Counted from the stretch's first letter, positions 14,637 through 19,370 are shown. The stretch: 64,000 nucleotides of DNA from a virus (IMGVR_UViG_3300007622_000004:1462-65461); one strand, 5' to 3'. Notes: a model not told the origin generated them from the sequence alone. Numbers and translations: made by a program.

Positions 14637-15113
14637 CCCCACAAGCCTCCAGGCTAATTTAAAAACAAGAAACGGGTACAACCAGCACACCCCCACTATA
14701 AAATGCACCACGCCACCCTACAACAAGTCTGACAAGACTACTACCCCTGGAAGACAACCTTTAAACCCCGCAAAAAAATAAAAATATTTTTCTTTACCCA
14801 ATCCATAGATAATTACTATTAACAAAAAACAACAACAACTATACTTAATACACGGCAGCGAATTTCGCTATCTTAGGACCGTTATAGGTAGAGATTGCAT
14901 CTGAGCAAACTCAGGTGCAATTTCTATATATAGCCCAAAACCAAATAACCCCAAAAATTGAGTATGCATTAAATTATAGCTACACGCATTTTTTTTGTAT
15001 ACCGAAATACCTCTGTCCACCATGGTCAATCCAACCTAATAAAGATTGGAGTGCAAGAATAAGACTATTTAATTCTTGTACACCAATTTGTTGGGGATTG
15101 ATGTGATCTGTGC

Positions 15114-15145
15114 TTGAGTATACATTCTACTCGCCCCCATATAGT
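15114..15145 (+). promoter_or_regulatory. Cassette 1 promoter
   Basis: TTGAGT-N20-TATAGT. Confidence 0.7.
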
Positions 15146-15189
15146 TATAAGTGTAAGGCAATCACGCTTTACCCAAGCAGGAGGCAAAT

Positions 15190-15384
15190 ATGAATAGAGT
15201 TCGGATAATGTTCACAACTATTGACTATGACTTAGTGAATGACCACACTGAGGCACTGATGAGTGCAGGGCGTAAGATAATTGAACTTGAGGAAGCCCTT
15301 ACTGAACACAAGGCGAGATTAGCACAAGGTTTGGCTTCTCGTTCTCAGTATCTCAATGGTGTTATGGAGAACCTTAAGAAGTAA
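15190..15384 (+). CDS. Cassette 1 small coiled-coil protein
   Basis: 64 aa, GGAGG RBS. Confidence 0.8.
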   Translation: MNRVRIMFTTIDYDLVNDHTEALMSAGRKIIELEEALTEHKARLAQGLASRSQYLNGVMENLKK

Positions 15385-15391
15385 TACCAGT

Positions 15392-15423
15392 CCCCCAAGC
15401 CTTCGGGCTTGGGGGATTTCTTT
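15392..15423 (+). terminator. Intrinsic terminator type A
   Basis: CCCCCAAGCC-TTCG-GGCTTGGGGG plus T tract. Confidence 0.85.
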
Positions 15424-15564
15424 ATGCCCCTGAACACTACCCGTTGTGTAGATCCATAGTTGCTGTGTTGAGTGTGTGTGTGCTTTACAAAACACGGTGG
15501 TGTGCGAGAATGCAAATAACAAATTCTTGTGCACCAATGACATGGCTTACATAGTGTTGTGTTG

Positions 15565-15596
15565 TTGAGTATATATTCTATCTCTTATCGTATAGT
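15565..15596 (+). promoter_or_regulatory. Cassette 2 promoter
   Basis: TTGAGT-N20-TATAGT. Confidence 0.7.
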
Positions 15597-15636
15597 AATA
15601 ACTGTAAGCAAACAACAACAACAAAGGAGAACAGTG

Positions 15637-15909
15637 ATGTTCGGATACCGAAAGATAAAGTGGGATAGACCCAACAAGAACACTTGGGTCAGCCCTGACG
15701 GGCTATATGTGATAGATAGACAAGACGCTATCAACTACATAGCCCAAAAGAAAGTGTTCAACACCGAAGTTGGGTGCTTAATATATGATGACCACATTGT
15801 AGCAACACGGTTAAATGGTGCTAAGAAGTGGTGTGATGAATTGTGCGAGAAAGATTACCTACACAATTTACAAGTCCATATCAACCAAACAAGCCGATAC
15901 GGTTCTTAA
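15637..15909 (+). CDS. Cassette 2 hypothetical protein
   Basis: MFGYRKIKW..., AAGGAG RBS. Confidence 0.8.
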   Translation: MFGYRKIKWDRPNKNTWVSPDGLYVIDRQDAINYIAQKKVFNTEVGCLIYDDHIVATRLNGAKKWCDELCEKDYLHNLQVHINQTSRYGS

Positions 15910-15923
15910 AGAAAGGAGAAACA

Positions 15924-16031
15924 ATGGAAATAATTATCTATGACCTGCCATTAGTGGTAGGGCTGATTGGACTTGCTCTAATCGGTATTAAGTTCGCTCA
16001 CGAAATTGGGCGAAGAAAGCAAGGAGAATAA
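15924..16031 (+). CDS. Cassette 2 second gene, 35-aa single-TM peptide
   Basis: MEIIIYDLPLVVGLIGLALIGIKFAHEIGRRKQGE, AAGGAG RBS. Confidence 0.7.
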   Translation: MEIIIYDLPLVVGLIGLALIGIKFAHEIGRRKQGE

Positions 16032-16034
16032 ATT

Positions 16035-16075
16035 AAACCCGAGCACTCACCCTCTGAGTGCTCGGGTTTTTTTTT
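16035..16075 (+). terminator. Intrinsic terminator type B
   Basis: CCCGAGCACTC-N7-GAGTGCTCGGG plus T tract. Confidence 0.85.
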
Positions 16076-16213
16076 GCCCGAACACCATGCTCTATGTAGC
16101 TGGGTAGAACCTATGTTTAGTATATACCTAGTCTCTCAACTTATGTCGGTGTACGAGAGTGCAATTAGCAAACTATTGTGCACCAGCGATAAGGGGTACA
16201 TGATGATTTGTTA

Positions 16214-16245
16214 TTGAGTACATATGCTCTCTCAATCCGTATAGT
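16214..16245 (+). promoter_or_regulatory. Cassette 3 promoter
   Basis: TTGAGT-N20-TATAGT. Confidence 0.7.
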
Positions 16246-16277
16246 GATAAGTGTGAGGCAACAAAGAAAGAGGCAAT

Positions 16278-16454
16278 ATGGAATATCCACGAAAGATGAC
16301 GCTGATTGAAAAATTCAGCGAGTTAGATAAAGTTCAATCCCAAGTTGTTAAAGGTATGATCACAATAAGGGAAGCACTTAATCAGAGAATAAGAATAATG
16401 ACCGAGTGCCAAGAGATACTCCGAGAGATGATAAAGTACGACCTAGGCGAATAA
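16278..16454 (+). CDS. Cassette 3 small helical protein (58 aa)
   Basis: Hand translation MEYPRKMTLIEKFSELDKVQ...MIKYDLGE; GAGG RBS; below ORF-track cutoff. Confidence 0.75.
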   Translation: MEYPRKMTLIEKFSELDKVQSQVVKGMITIREALNQRIRIMTECQEILREMIKYDLGE

Positions 16455-16483
16455 GTAATACCACAACAACCACACCTCACAGT

Positions 16484-16515
16484 CCCCCAAGCCTTCGGGC
16501 TTGGGGGATTTCTTT
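16484..16515 (+). terminator. Intrinsic terminator type A
   Basis: Identical to 15392 hairpin. Confidence 0.85.
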
Positions 16516-17467: not shown

Positions 17468-17500
17468 CCCCCAAGCCTTCGGGCTTGGGGGATTTTTTTT
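17468..17500 (+). terminator. Intrinsic terminator type A
   Basis: Identical UUCG hairpin plus T tract. Confidence 0.85.
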
Positions 17501-17639
17501 GCCCCTGAACTCCATCCACTGTGTAGGCCGGTAGACGCTGTGTTGAGTATGTAGTTGATTTACAAATCCTGATGGTGTGCGAGAATGTGAATAACAAATT
17601 CTTGTGCACCAGCAACAAGGCTTATATGATGATTTTATA

Positions 17640-17671
17640 TTGAGCACACATTCTTTCTCAACCCGTATAGT
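17640..17671 (+). promoter_or_regulatory. Cassette 6 promoter
   Basis: TTGAGC-N20-TATAGT. Confidence 0.7.
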
Positions 17672-17712
17672 TATTAGTGTCAGGTAATAACCAAACACAA
17701 AGGAGAACAACA

Positions 17713-18009
17713 ATGAGTAAGTATCTAGCAAATGTCTCGTTTACTTCACGAGACAGTGAAGGTAATATCGGTGTGGATTACCACCACGAGGAAATAACAT
17801 TTACAGCCAAAGATGATGTTGAGGCTGTAGAGATATTGACTGAACTCGTAAACGGGGCACGAGAACACCGACCAACTGACACAATTGGCATAAACGGTTT
17901 CTATCGCTTTATGCCAGTTGTAGTTGACGAATTTGCTACAGTCAGTGAACTTGAACCACTAGATCAATTGGTTACTAGTGGTATTGCCTATGTTCGTGAC
18001 TGGGAGTAA
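17713..18009 (+). CDS. Cassette 6 acidic hypothetical protein
   Basis: MSKYLANVSF..., AAGGAG RBS. Confidence 0.8.
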   Translation: MSKYLANVSFTSRDSEGNIGVDYHHEEITFTAKDDVEAVEILTELVNGAREHRPTDTIGINGFYRFMPVVVDEFATVSELEPLDQLVTSGIAYVRDWE

Positions 18010-18021
18010 TACCCACCTATT

Positions 18022-18056
18022 AAAACCCCAAGCCTTCGGGCTTGGGGTTTTTTTTT
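18022..18056 (+). terminator. Intrinsic terminator type A variant
   Basis: AAAACCCCAAGCC-TTCG-GGCTTGGGGTTTT. Confidence 0.85.
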
Positions 18057-18196
18057 GCCCCTGAACTCGTTCCTCTGTGTAGCAAGGTAGAAGCTGTGTT
18101 GAGTGTATGTATGTTTTACAAATTATGACTGGTGTGCGAGAGCGCGAATAGTAAACTATTGTGCACCAGCAGTAAGGATAACATAGTGATCAATCT

Positions 18197-18228
18197 TTGA
18201 GTACATATTCTCTTTCAATCCGTATAGT
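18197..18228 (+). promoter_or_regulatory. Cassette 7 promoter, followed by 13-bp 5' leader hairpin
   Basis: TTGAGT-N20-TATAGT; GTGTAAGGCGCAG..CTGCGCCTTACAC. Confidence 0.7.
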
Positions 18229-18297
18229 AATAAGTGTAAGGCGCAGTTTGCGTTCTCTTTCTGCGCCTTACACCCACCACTAGCGAAAGGTAAAACA

Positions 18298-18588
18298 ATG
18301 AAGGAAGAAAATAAGTTCACAATGTTGGAACTGCAACTGCAGGAACTGCAGTTAAGTAAAAACGGGATAAAAGACCTAGAGTTGCTCACTGAAAATTGGG
18401 CAGAGCAAGCAAAGATTACCCCCGAAGAAGTTGAGGAAGAGGCCGAAGTAATGGCGTTAATCCTGAACACCGTATCAGCAATAAAGGCGAAGTACCCAAT
18501 AATTCCGATTACTGATATCTTCGTCTTTTTGCTTGACGGTTTACGAGCAAAGTATGAACGAGAAAAGAAAGAAAAAGACAAACAATAA
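18298..18588 (+). CDS. Cassette 7 helical hypothetical protein
   Basis: 96 aa, GAAAGG RBS. Confidence 0.8.
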   Translation: MKEENKFTMLELQLQELQLSKNGIKDLELLTENWAEQAKITPEEVEEEAEVMALILNTVSAIKAKYPIIPITDIFVFLLDGLRAKYEREKKEKDKQ

Positions 18589-18597
18589 TCCCCCAGT

Positions 18598-18629
18598 CCC
18601 CCAAGCCTTCGGGCTTGGGGGATTTTTTT
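18598..18629 (+). terminator. Intrinsic terminator type A
   Basis: Identical UUCG hairpin plus T tract. Confidence 0.85.
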
Positions 18630-18768
18630 GTCCCTGAACTCCTGCGCCTATGTGGGTATGTAGATCCTATGTTGAGTACATCTGTGTTTTACAAATTACG
18701 ACTGGTGTGCGAGAAAGCGATTAGCAATTTCTTGTGCACCAGCGGAACGGTACAATTAATATAATTTA

Positions 18769-18800
18769 TTGAGTATATATTCTTATTCTCACCATATAGT
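18769..18800 (+). promoter_or_regulatory. Cassette 8 promoter
   Basis: TTGAGT-N20-TATAGT. Confidence 0.7.
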
Positions 18801-18849
18801 TATTACTAGTCAAGCAATACCGCTTGACACTGAGAGAAAAGAGTTAGTA

Positions 18850-19143
18850 ATGCTAAAAGTTAACCTTAATGACATCAAGGCTAATCTCGTAACACGGGGC
18901 AGACACCCGTTCACCGATATTGAACTTGAAAAAGCCATTAAAGCACTTGACCCAAAAGTTGACGGCGATGCCTTCATCTATGCCGAGTGCGACCCAACGG
19001 ACGAGAACTACATCGCAGTCAAAGCGAAGTATCGCAACCGTGTAACCACCGTGAGTGGACAACTTGGTATCGCTGTAACAGCCCTTTGGACTGTTGACGG
19101 TCAACTGGTTGTTGGGCTTAAGCAAGTAAAGAAAAAGAAGTAA
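18850..19143 (+). CDS. Cassette 8 basic protein, paralog of cassette 9
   Basis: MLKVNLNDIKANLVTRGRH..KAKYRNRVTT..WTVDGQLVV. Confidence 0.8.
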   Translation: MLKVNLNDIKANLVTRGRHPFTDIELEKAIKALDPKVDGDAFIYAECDPTDENYIAVKAKYRNRVTTVSGQLGIAVTALWTVDGQLVVGLKQVKKKK

Positions 19144-19176
19144 CCCTTACCCCATCAGGGTTACGCAATAACAATT

Positions 19177-19208
19177 AAGGCTCGCAGGTTCGCCTGCGAG
19201 CCTTTTTT
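19177..19208 (+). terminator. Intrinsic terminator type C
   Basis: AAGGCTCGCAGG-TTCG-CCTGCGAGCCTT plus T tract. Confidence 0.85.
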
Positions 19209-19370
19209 GCTGGCGTTCAGTTTTTGCTAATCGCAAATTGAACGCCAGACTACGCTGTACATGATATAAATTGTTTTTAGTACATATTCCGGATACAAAT
19301 TGTGTTGGCGTGCGAAGTGCGACTAGCTAACTTTGTACGCCAATTCATAAGGTAATATTTATATATTATA

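What the first reader, a model, noticed from the sequence alone, without database searches (positions are those of the whole stretch)
15048..19341. 37-nt leader hairpin shows G.T pairs and compensatory change, pointing to a single-stranded fold
Seen: GGTGTGCGAGAA..TTCTTGTGCACC (units 2, 6, 8) pairs over 12-13 bp with only G.T non-Watson-Crick pairs. Units 3/4 change one G.T to A-T. Unit 9 has a double compensatory change (GGCGT/ACGCC versus GGTGT/GCACC). Loop consensus is about TGCGAWTAGCAAA. G.T tolerance is strand-specific (A.C on the bottom strand), which favours a folded top-strand RNA or ssDNA over a plain dsDNA operator. Yet it lies between a terminator and the next promoter, where little sense RNA is expected. 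Inference: an ssDNA or cruciform signal (hairpin promoter like N4 vRNAP, HUH or attC-like recombination substrate) or a read-through RNA element.
Basis: partly seen in the sequence, partly recalled or inferred. Interest (0 to 1): 0.8.

Follow-up and report, generated by a model that had tools for sequence, protein, structure and literature searches.

The report
Promoter-linked hairpin of actinophage gene cassettes
A roughly 42-base imperfect hairpin sits at a fixed distance upstream of every promoter in an array of tiny phage genes. It is kept as a fold in at least a dozen uncultured freshwater actinophages and looks like an undescribed structure-dependent control site, but whether it works as DNA or as RNA is still open.

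Summary
The window is part of a freshwater actinophage of about 100 kb that carries two WhiB-like genes. Nine forward copies of a 41-45 nt imperfect hairpin and two loop-flipped copies lie only in a 5 kb array of small-gene cassettes.

I found 97 forward and 22 flipped copies in 12 phage contigs.
- The arms covary between phages and among copies within one phage.
- The distance between the conserved arms varies from 33 to 38 nt.
- Non-Watson-Crick pairs are mainly G.T and G.A on the gene-sense strand. This is not explained by base composition.
- Four G-C pairs, an internal irregularity and a YTAGC loop are conserved.

Every forward copy ends 26±1 nt before a 15-nt box. A TAnnnT element follows 20-21 nt after that box's first hexamer, then a 5' UTR stem-loop. 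The hairpin is therefore part of a promoter module, about -65 to -107, downstream of the previous terminator.

It matches no Rfam family. No virion RNA polymerase, integrase, HUH enzyme or sigma factor was found.

Best reading (0.4): a protein-recognised fold-back operator at DNA level. The main rival (0.3) is a sense RNA hairpin in read-through transcripts. The N4, attC and HUH analogies fail their membership tests.

The parts
15045..15088 (+). forward hairpin, unit 1 (degenerate loop)
   Evidence: pattern match with 3 mismatches; model R1 36.7 bits; RNA fold -15.4 kcal/mol, z -5.2
15496..15539 (+). forward hairpin, unit 2
   Evidence: -18.8 kcal/mol, z -5.3
16145..16188 (+). forward hairpin, unit 3
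16587..16630 (+). forward hairpin, unit 4 (core identical to unit 3)
17093..17136 (+). forward hairpin, unit 5
17571..17614 (+). forward hairpin, unit 6
18128..18171 (+). forward hairpin, unit 7
18701..18744 (+). forward hairpin, unit 8
   Evidence: -23.3 kcal/mol, z -6.1
19304..19345 (+). forward hairpin, unit 9 (35-nt core with compensatory changes)
   Evidence: -23.4 kcal/mol, z -6.0
19920..19961 (+). decayed forward hairpin of a tenth, apparently dead unit
   Evidence: seen in the sequence; not found by model R1 at E <= 0.01
19208..19249 (-). loop-flipped (reverse) copy directly after the terminator T-run of unit 8's gene; a box follows about 26 nt downstream on the + strand
   Evidence: (32.7 bits)
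19808..19849 (-). loop-flipped (reverse) copy directly after the terminator of unit 9's gene
   Evidence: 41 bits
15114..15145 (+). promoter module of unit 1: 15-nt box (15114-15128) and TATAGT (15140-15145)
15565..15596 (+). promoter module of unit 2 (box plus TATAGT)
16214..16245 (+). promoter module of unit 3
16656..16687 (+). promoter module of unit 4
17162..17193 (+). promoter module of unit 5
17640..17671 (+). promoter module of unit 6
18197..18228 (+). promoter module of unit 7
18769..18800 (+). promoter module of unit 8
19371..19402 (+). promoter module of unit 9
15389..15418 (+). intrinsic terminator before unit 2. Like ones at 16035-16069, 16481-16510, 16981-17015, 17467-17492, 18022-18051, 18595-18624, 19177-19204, 19786-19803
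   Evidence: terminator scan: 26 found against 4.5 expected
15190..19751 (+). the cassette genes: about 11 small ORFs of 35-99 aa with no family match. The last two (18850-19143, 19452-19751) are paralogs of a family kept at the 3' end of every related array

Best explanation
The hairpin is the upstream part (about -65 to -107 from the predicted start) of one special promoter module. That module drives each small-gene cassette of a hyper-variable array in a freshwater actinophage.

I read it as a fold-back, structure-dependent operator that acts at the DNA level. The two arms pair with each other on the gene-sense (non-template) strand. This displays four invariant G-C pairs, an internal G.A or wobble irregularity and a YTAGC loop to a sequence-specific protein. 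That protein, from the phage or the host, would switch all cassette promoters together.

Shown:
- the element and its restriction to the array;
- its conservation as a fold in 12 phages;
- covariation within and between phages;
- the variable arm separation;
- the sense-strand bias of its non-Watson-Crick pairs;
- its one-to-one, 26±1 nt coupling to the promoter box;
- short duplex palindromes with the same half-site as the hairpin arms in sister phages.

Inferred: that a protein binds it, that the bound form is extruded DNA rather than RNA, and that the effect is promoter control.
For: Fold rather than duplex site:
- On a sequence-only alignment of 91 copies, 83% of cells pair against 72.6% in shuffles. 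There are 171 double-change cells against 67. The covariation score is 0.361 against 0.174 (0/500 shuffles reach it), and slid controls give 0.07-0.11.
- Shuffling the right arms only among copies of the same phage gives 1040±10 Watson-Crick cells against 1184 observed (0/2000).
- The invariant G and C of the two arms lie 33-38 nt apart, and the distance varies within single phages.

Strand bias:
- The + strand folds better in 92 of 97 copies, mean -17.6 against -13.1 kcal/mol.
- G.T 135 against A.C 47 cells, and G.A 91 against A.G 17.
- Collapsed to one count per phage, pair and type, G.T 58 against A.C 24, p = 2e-4.
- The + strand has A > T and G about equal to C, so composition does not give this bias.

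DNA-level promoter element:
- The stem end lies 25-27 nt from the box in 96 of 97 forward copies. The box hexamer lies 20-21 nt from TAnnnT.
- Every array promoter has a hairpin.
- Hits are confined to one roughly 6 kb block in four records of 65-94 kb.
- The hairpin lies downstream of strong intrinsic terminators, and in some phages 6-10 nt after the T-run.
- Loop-flipped copies keep the phage-specific loop motif on the other strand and also have a box 26 nt downstream.
- In sister phages the homologous near-perfect palindromes share their half-site with up to 40 short 12-bp palindromes per array. These are too short to be RNA hairpins.

Recognition: G-C pairs 4-62 (97/97), 7-59 (96/97), 5-61 and 11-56 never flip, and the loop is conserved.
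Against: - The forward copies carry 2-4 mismatches or wobbles per stem. Cruciform extrusion from duplex DNA would be energetically costly. G.U wobbles and G.A pairs are more typical of RNA helices.
- No binding protein is identified. The only recognisable transcription factors are two WhiB-like proteins, and no HTH_3 regulator was found.
- No case is known to me of a host-polymerase promoter controlled by an upstream DNA hairpin.
- The sister-group hairpins and the flipped copies show no strand bias. The bias could therefore partly reflect separate sequence constraints on the two arms.
- Copies within an array are paralogs, so counts overstate the number of independent events.
- The promoter itself is inferred from sequence only. 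Its 20-21 nt spacer is not that of a standard sigma-70/SigA promoter.
Confidence: 0.4

Rival explanations
1. A sense-strand RNA hairpin. Polymerases that run through the preceding terminator transcribe it. The folded RNA, with its G.U and G.A pairs, 3' bulge and conserved loop, is bound by a phage or host protein. That protein insulates the next promoter or sets read-through (nut-, put- or pause-like control).
For: - G.T and G.A are enriched on the gene-sense strand. The same direction is seen in the array's terminators, which are bona fide RNA hairpins (G.T 21 against A.C 1).
- Fold energies and z-scores are good for RNA.
- Covariation and variable stem length fit an RNA helix.
- The imperfect stems would fold easily as RNA but poorly as a cruciform.
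Against: - It lies outside the predicted transcription unit: after a strong terminator, in some phages 6-10 nt after the T-run, and upstream of the predicted start.
- The rigid 26±1 nt spacing to a DNA promoter box and the one-to-one pairing with promoters have no obvious RNA rationale.
- Flipped copies keep the loop motif on the antisense strand.
- Sister phages carry the same half-site in short palindromes that cannot fold as RNA.
- It has no U-tract, so it is not itself a terminator. Mycobacterial polymerase needs a U-tract (PMC3993855).
- No Rfam match.
Confidence: 0.3
2. An ordinary duplex operator. A dimeric or tetrameric repressor or activator reads the two conserved arms and the central motif on B-form DNA. 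The hairpin potential is a by-product of dyad symmetry.
For: - Invariant symmetric G-C positions, fixed position relative to the promoter, and function in both loop orientations.
- Short palindromic sites in sister phages.
- Precedents in actinophages: the 17-bp dyad repeat of Cluster O mycobacteriophages (PMC4351075), and the 18-bp palindrome repeated beside the early promoters of phiC31 (that it is the repressor's site is from my own knowledge).
Against: - Arm separation varies from 33 to 38 nt, even within one phage.
- Non-conserved positions of the two arms covary among copies of the same phage.
- The bias of mismatches to one strand has no meaning for duplex reading.
Confidence: 0.15
3. 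A recombination site for cassette shuffling. It would work either as an attC- or HUH-like single-strand substrate, or simply as the most conserved stretch for homologous exchange between cassettes, as proposed for PeSL elements.
For: - The array is hyper-variable. Against locus L001 the flanks are 83-90% identical, while the cassettes are reshuffled, and two have swapped order.
- The repeated 200-nt units are obvious substrates for homologous recombination.
Against: - No tyrosine recombinase and no Y1 HUH enzyme in five records.
- No attC core sites.
- Rigid coupling to the promoter and conserved irregularities are not needed for homologous exchange.
- Shuffling may be a side effect of any repeated module.
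Confidence: 0.1
4. A hairpin promoter for an unrecognised phage RNA polymerase (N4-like).
For: A DNA hairpin in an array of probable early genes. The record is only about 63% complete, so genes are missing.
Against: - No ORF above 1133 aa and no T7-like polymerase domain. A 90% complete relative has no sigma-70 region-2 domain either.
- The stem is 13-17 bp with a 4-5 nt loop, not 5-7 bp with a 3-nt loop.
- The better-folding strand is the non-template strand.
- A separate box and TAnnnT promoter follows each hairpin.
Confidence: 0.03

Closest known systems
PeSL / PmSL regulatory cassettes of T4-like phages (PMC2839356, PMC4122927)
   Same: Repeated composite intergenic modules (stem-loop, promoter, Shine-Dalgarno) flank small ORFs in hyper-variable regions. 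They are associated with cassette indels and swaps. Here the cassettes are reshuffled against a close relative.
   Different: In PeSLs the stem-loop is the terminator, and the promoter is sigma-70-like with a 17-nt spacer. Here there is a separate canonical terminator plus a second, longer, imperfect hairpin with conserved pairs and loop. That hairpin is fixed 26 nt before a non-standard box and TAnnnT promoter, and the host group is different (actinophage).
phiC31 early region: repeated early promoters and conserved inverted repeats
   Same: An actinophage with a repeated non-standard early promoter sequence (9 copies) and a repeated palindrome (at least 10 copies) in the intergenic regions of the early genes. 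That the palindrome is the repressor's site is from my own knowledge.
   Different: The phiC31 palindrome is a short, nearly perfect 16-18 bp duplex site at variable distance from the promoters. The present element is 41-45 nt with a variable, covarying inner stem, strand-biased wobbles and a fixed distance to the promoter.
17-bp dyad repeat of Cluster O mycobacteriophages (PMC4351075)
   Same: More than 30 copies of a palindrome scattered between genes of an actinophage. Its function is unknown, and the central bases show some orientation bias relative to transcription.
   Different: That repeat has invariant 7-bp arms with a 3-bp centre and is found genome-wide. This element is confined to one array, is long, is structurally conserved rather than sequence-invariant, and is tied one-to-one to a promoter.
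Hairpin promoters of coliphage N4 (virion RNA polymerase)
   Same: A DNA hairpin on one strand as a transcription signal of phage early genes. It is the only well-known precedent for strand-specific DNA hairpins in promoters (own knowledge).
   Different: N4 hairpins are 5-7 bp with a 3-nt loop, lie at the start site on the template strand, and need a giant injected polymerase. None of this is met here.
Integron attC sites and REP/RAYT elements
   Same: Imperfect palindromes that are read as one folded DNA strand, with strand-marking mismatches, in arrays of small cassettes or after terminators (own knowledge).
   Different: No integrase or HUH enzyme and no R''/R' core sites. The cassettes have their own promoters and terminators.

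Membership tests
N4-type hairpin promoter | a giant virion RNA polymerase is encoded | tested here: not met
   The largest ORF is 1133 aa and is DnaE. There is no PF00940 match (the control genomes lack the family, so this search is weak). The record is 63% complete, and the 80-90% complete relatives were not examined for large ORFs or for PF00940.
N4-type hairpin promoter | short hairpin (5-7 bp stem, 3-nt loop) on the template strand at the start site | tested here: not met
   The stem is 13-17 bp and the loop 4-5 nt. The better fold is on the non-template strand. The element lies about 65-107 nt upstream of the predicted start.
Integron attC | an IntI-type tyrosine recombinase is associated | tested here: not met
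   PF00589 is absent from 5 records, while the controls ring in 14 of 14 genomes.
Integron attC | RYYYAAC / GTTRRRY core sites and promoterless cassettes | tested here: not met
   The arms do not fit these cores. Each cassette has its own promoter module and terminator.
REP/RAYT or IS200/IS605 hairpins | a Y1 HUH transposase or RAYT in the genome | tested here: not met
   PF01797 is absent from 5 records.
Any Rfam RNA family | match to a covariance model | tested here: not met
   Only sub-threshold matches, all lying on the terminators.
Intrinsic terminator | GC-rich hairpin followed by a U-tract | tested here: not met
   The 3' flank is A/G-rich with no T-run. The true terminators lie upstream.
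Duplex palindromic operator | half-sites at a fixed spacing, with non-contacted positions free to vary independently | tested here: not met
   The spacing is 33-38 nt. Left and right arms covary within phages.
PeSL-type regulatory cassette | repeated terminator and promoter module flanking small ORFs in a plastic region | tested here: met
   This describes the array as a whole, not the extra hairpin.
PeSL-type regulatory cassette | sigma-70-like promoter with a 17-nt spacer, and the stem-loop is the terminator | tested here: not met
   The spacer is 20-21 nt. The sigma-70 scan is not enriched. The hairpin in question comes in addition to the terminator.
nut/put-type antitermination RNA | lies inside the transcript, downstream of the promoter it serves | tested here: inconclusive
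   By sequence it lies upstream of the predicted start and after a terminator. No transcript ends could be mapped.

The most novel reading that the evidence does not exclude
A one-strand DNA hairpin, extruded upstream of a host-polymerase promoter, acts as a structure-gated operator for a whole class of actinophage promoters. A dedicated protein would read it through conserved G-C pairs, a G.A irregularity and a YTAGC loop. This would be a second, mechanistically different example, after N4, of hairpin-dependent promoter control. In sister phages the same half-sites occur both as short duplex palindromes and split by an extrudable insert.
Probability: 0.25. Interest if true: 0.8.

Novelty: new variant of a known kind. 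Interest (0 to 1): 0.6.

Why it matters
Phage early-gene arrays with repeated promoter and terminator cassettes are known. A second, long, imperfect hairpin that is conserved as a fold, biased to one strand and locked to a non-standard promoter has not been described.

It offers a handle on how abundant, mostly uncultured freshwater actinophages time the expression of their host-takeover genes. It also gives a natural test case for separating duplex, cruciform and RNA readings of a palindrome. The arm-swap design is simple, and the family provides about 120 natural variants.

If the DNA-hairpin reading holds, structure-dependent promoter control would extend beyond N4. If the RNA reading holds, it would define a new protein-binding RNA motif in phage intergenic regions.

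Tried and rejected
- Nucleotide search of cultured phages gave no match. The exact core pattern in IMG/VR gave 0 hits. Relatives were reached instead through the neighbouring ferredoxin-like gene.
- Rfam gave only weak matches on the terminators.
- Metatranscriptome contigs of four runs cover only the cassette ORFs, and none bridges a hairpin. 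These are low-depth contigs, repeats break such assemblies, and I laid no DNA run beside them. I do not count this as evidence that the hairpin is untranscribed.
- RNAalifold on the MAFFT alignment kept only the five outer pairs. The cause is the conserved G.A position and the misaligned inner stems, so I used explicit pair counts and a covariance-model alignment instead.
- The sigma-70 scan showed no enrichment (12 found against 16.9 expected).
- A promoter with its -35 in the right arm (TTG...) and a -10-like hexamer 17 nt downstream fits several units of this window. Its position shifts by 3 nt or vanishes in relatives, so I rejected it.
- Base composition does not explain the G.T excess, because A > T and G is about equal to C on the + strand.
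- The strand bias of the loop-flipped copies seemed to follow the + strand (13 against 4 cells). It collapses to 8 against 3, or 4 against 3, independent combinations, which is not significant.
- Array proteins have no significant Pfam or PHROG family; only P0001 gives a marginal PHROG hit (E 0.0011, unknown function). The conserved 98-aa family gave an AlphaFold model (pLDDT 82) with no PDB fold match, best Foldseek E-value 0.3.
- No HTH_3 regulator, sigma factor, integrase or HUH enzyme was found.
- The phiC31 terminator paper could not be read.

Full report
**What the window is.** The window is 64 kb of a 65.5 kb IMG/VR virus record that CheckV rates about 63% complete. It encodes a DnaE-type polymerase, DnaB, a primase, a class II ribonucleotide reductase, a portal, a terminase, glycosyltransferases and two WhiB-like proteins. 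The terminase and DnaE are nearest to those of Streptomyces phages, at about 37-41% identity. WhiB-like genes are taken as a marker of actinophages (PMC10202952). DNA runs holding the stretch are labelled marine, lake and river metagenomes. I therefore treat it as an uncultured aquatic actinophage of about 100 kb.

**The observation.** The region 15.0-19.9 kb holds nine tandem cassettes on the + strand. Each intergenic unit has these parts in order:
- an intrinsic terminator (26 terminator-like sites against 4.5 expected);
- a first 15-nt box;
- the hairpin;
- a 26-nt spacer;
- a second 15-nt box (consensus TTGAGTAYAYATTCT);
- 12 nt, then TATAGT;
- a stem-loop whose sequence differs from unit to unit;
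- a Shine-Dalgarno site and a small ORF.

A strict pattern for the 37-nt core gives 8 matches against 0 expected. Unit 9 is a 35-nt variant. The helix extends a few pairs further out, so the element is 41-45 nt. The + strand folds at -15 to -23 kcal/mol (z -3.0 to -6.1), and the - strand at -9 to -14 kcal/mol.

**Relatives.** There is no nucleotide match among cultured phages and no exact pattern match in IMG/VR. Loci encoding the neighbouring ferredoxin-like protein gave homologous arrays. Iterated nhmmer and a covariance model (R1) found 97 forward and 22 loop-flipped copies in 12 distinct contigs. In four records of 65-94 kb, one of them 90% complete, all hits lie in a single block of about 6 kb.

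**Is it a fold?**
- On a sequence-only MAFFT alignment of 91 distinct copies, the stated helix has 83.4% paired cells against 72.6% in shuffles. It has 171 double-change cells against 67, and a covariation score of 0.361 against 0.174 (0 of 500 shuffles reach it). Structures slid by 1-3 columns give 0.07-0.11.
- Pairs 3-45, 4-44, 7-41, 10-38 and 14-34 each show three to five Watson-Crick types.
- When right-arm letters are shuffled only among copies of the same phage, Watson-Crick cells fall from 1184 to 1040±10 (0 of 2000 shuffles reach the observed value). Arms therefore covary copy by copy, not only between phages that might have different binding proteins.
- The invariant G and C of the two arms are 33-38 nt apart, and this varies within single phages. 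A protein bridging both arms on B-DNA would not tolerate that. A fold-back does.

**Strand bias.**
- The + strand folds better than the - strand in 92 of 97 forward copies.
- On the model alignment the forward copies have 1184 Watson-Crick, 135 G.T, 47 A.C and 91 G.A cells.
- Counting each phage, pair and type only once gives 58 G.T against 24 A.C (p = 2e-4). Without two doubtful pairs it is 48 against 15.
- The + strand of the array has A > T and G about equal to C, so composition would not give this.
- The array's canonical terminators, used as a positive control for RNA helices, show 21 G.T against 1 A.C.
- The flipped copies are almost perfect palindromes and show no significant bias.

**Sequence-specific features.** Four G-C pairs practically never change or flip (97/97, 96/97, 85/97, 84/97). 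One position is a G.A mismatch in half the copies, and a T.G wobble or an internal loop in others. The loop keeps a YTAGC motif, and an A-rich bulge follows the inner stem. This pattern, a conserved shape plus a few fixed bases, is what a protein-recognised hairpin looks like.

**Coupling to the promoter.**
- In 96 of 97 forward copies the stem ends 25-27 nt (26 in 72) before the box. TAnnnT follows the box hexamer after 20 nt (75 copies) or 21 nt (16 copies).
- Every such promoter in the arrays has a hairpin.
- The variable stem-loops right after TAnnnT, for example 18234-18273, mark the probable 5' ends of the mRNAs.
- The 20-21 nt spacer is not that of a standard promoter, and a sigma-70 scan is not enriched.
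- No sigma factor or phage polymerase was found in this or four related records. Two WhiB-like genes are conserved and may help the host enzyme use these promoters. This last point is inference.
- In several phages the hairpin starts 6-10 nt after the T-run of the preceding terminator. It could therefore be transcribed only by read-through.

**Flipped copies.** After the terminators of the last two or three cassettes of every array there is a copy whose loop motif lies on the other strand (window 19208-19249 and 19808-19849). On the + strand it is again followed by a box about 26 nt downstream. These cassettes encode paralogs of a conserved 98-aa protein. In units 2-8 of the window, the conserved motif just after the terminator looks like the leftover right arm of such a copy. 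Forward and flipped copies share the phage-specific loop type, 4-nt or 5-nt.

**Sister group.** Other loci from the same search carry, in the same place, near-perfect 35-nt palindromes with GTAA/TTAC arms. These arms align with the arms of the present family. The palindromes lie about 27 nt before a related box, in the one unit measured. The same loci carry up to 40 short 12-bp palindromes built from the same half-site. The inner parts of those long palindromes again differ between copies while staying complementary. They show no strand bias (3 G.T against 6 A.C). The short palindromes cannot be RNA hairpins. They point to a duplex-DNA-binding protein that reads the same half-site that sits in the hairpin arms.

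**Weighing the readings.**
- Plain duplex operator: explains position, symmetry and orientation independence. It does not explain within-phage covariation, variable arm spacing or strand bias.
- Sense RNA hairpin: explains the wobble bias and the imperfect stems. It does not explain the place outside the predicted transcript, the rigid link to a DNA promoter box, the flipped copies or the short palindromes of the sister group.
- Fold-back at DNA level, read by a protein on the non-template strand: fits all observations. It has an energetic problem, because imperfect stems extrude poorly, and it has no direct precedent for host-polymerase promoters.

I therefore put the DNA-level structural operator first (0.4), the read-through RNA element second (0.3), the duplex operator third (0.15), and recombination or N4-like readings last. 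None of this is shown experimentally. The RNA contigs I could lay cover only the ORFs and cannot decide the matter.

**Known families.** The array as a whole works like the PeSL cassettes of T4-like phages (PMC2839356, PMC4122927). This includes cassette reshuffling against a close relative whose flanks are 83-90% identical. The extra hairpin is not part of that description. The repeated early promoters and palindromes of phiC31 and the 17-bp dyad repeat of Cluster O mycobacteriophages (PMC4351075) are the nearest actinophage parallels, but both are short, rigid duplex sites. The N4, attC and HUH models fail their defining features. There is no Rfam family.

**Verdict.** This is a real, clade-wide, structurally conserved and promoter-locked hairpin of unknown mechanism. 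It is a new variant within the known kind of phage regulatory cassettes, with a fair chance of being something mechanistically new.

Noticed in passing
window 15153-15172, 17201-17229, 18234-18273, 18809-18828, 19411-19431: Directly after each TATAGT lies a stem-loop whose sequence differs in every unit but stays complementary (up to 13 bp, -23 kcal/mol in unit 7). These are probably 5'-terminal stabilising hairpins of the cassette mRNAs, and they mark the likely transcription starts.
   Followed up: partly
window 16691-16708 with 16813-16832: The 5' end of the unit 4 leader is complementary to a stretch about 120 nt downstream. The two enclose a 38-aa ORF (16717-16833). This may be a long-range pairing, or a relic of a leader hairpin split by an insertion.
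   Followed up: no
window 8154-8220: The divergent intergenic region before the + strand gene block holds three tandem 8-nt repeats that resemble the promoter box. A T-run follows, then a 20-nt mini-palindrome made of the hairpin's outer arms with only 4 nt between them. Its G.T wobble is on the - strand.
   Followed up: no
window 18850-19143 and 19452-19751; L001, L015, L019, L020, L022, L026, L027, L064: A conserved family of about 98 aa, with a basic N-terminal stretch and a basic tail, occurs as 2-3 tandem paralogs at the 3' end of every array. Each paralog is followed by a terminator and, where inspected (the window and L015), a loop-flipped hairpin. The AlphaFold model has pLDDT 82 and no fold match. 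It is a candidate binding factor, untested.
   Followed up: partly
L005, L007, L008, L011, L013, L018, L024, L030, L048 (10.6-20 kb of each locus): Sister phages have arrays with near-perfect 35-nt palindromes (GTAA/TTAC arms) and up to 40 copies per array of a 12-bp palindrome built from the same half-site.
   Followed up: partly
window 15620-17504 against L001 11408-12888: Cassettes are reshuffled relative to a relative whose flanks are 83-90% identical, and two neighbouring ORFs have swapped order. This resembles PeSL-like modular exchange.
   Followed up: partly
window 35028-35240 (-) and 58400-58576 (-): Two WhiB-like genes, conserved in related records. They are the only recognisable transcription factors and they indicate an actinobacterial host.
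   Followed up: partly
window 19850-20600: About 750 nt of AT-rich non-coding DNA lies at the point where the + and - strand gene blocks converge. It includes a decayed tenth unit and a 20-bp hairpin with T-runs on both sides (20538-20583). It may be a bidirectional terminator or an origin region.
   Followed up: no
window 14860-14887: One freshwater metatranscriptome holds a 31-nt contig of very high depth (25000) that matches this non-coding stretch upstream of unit 1 with one mismatch. It could be a small abundant RNA or a chance match to another organism.
   Followed up: no
window 13738-14415, 12090-12479, 13158-13718: Auxiliary genes lie just upstream of the array: a ferredoxin-like protein (PHROG 3704), a SAM decarboxylase-like protein and an endonuclease V-like protein. 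The first has several hundred relatives in IMG/VR (300 pattern-matched stretches, 297 confirmed) and served as the anchor for finding related arrays.
   Followed up: partly
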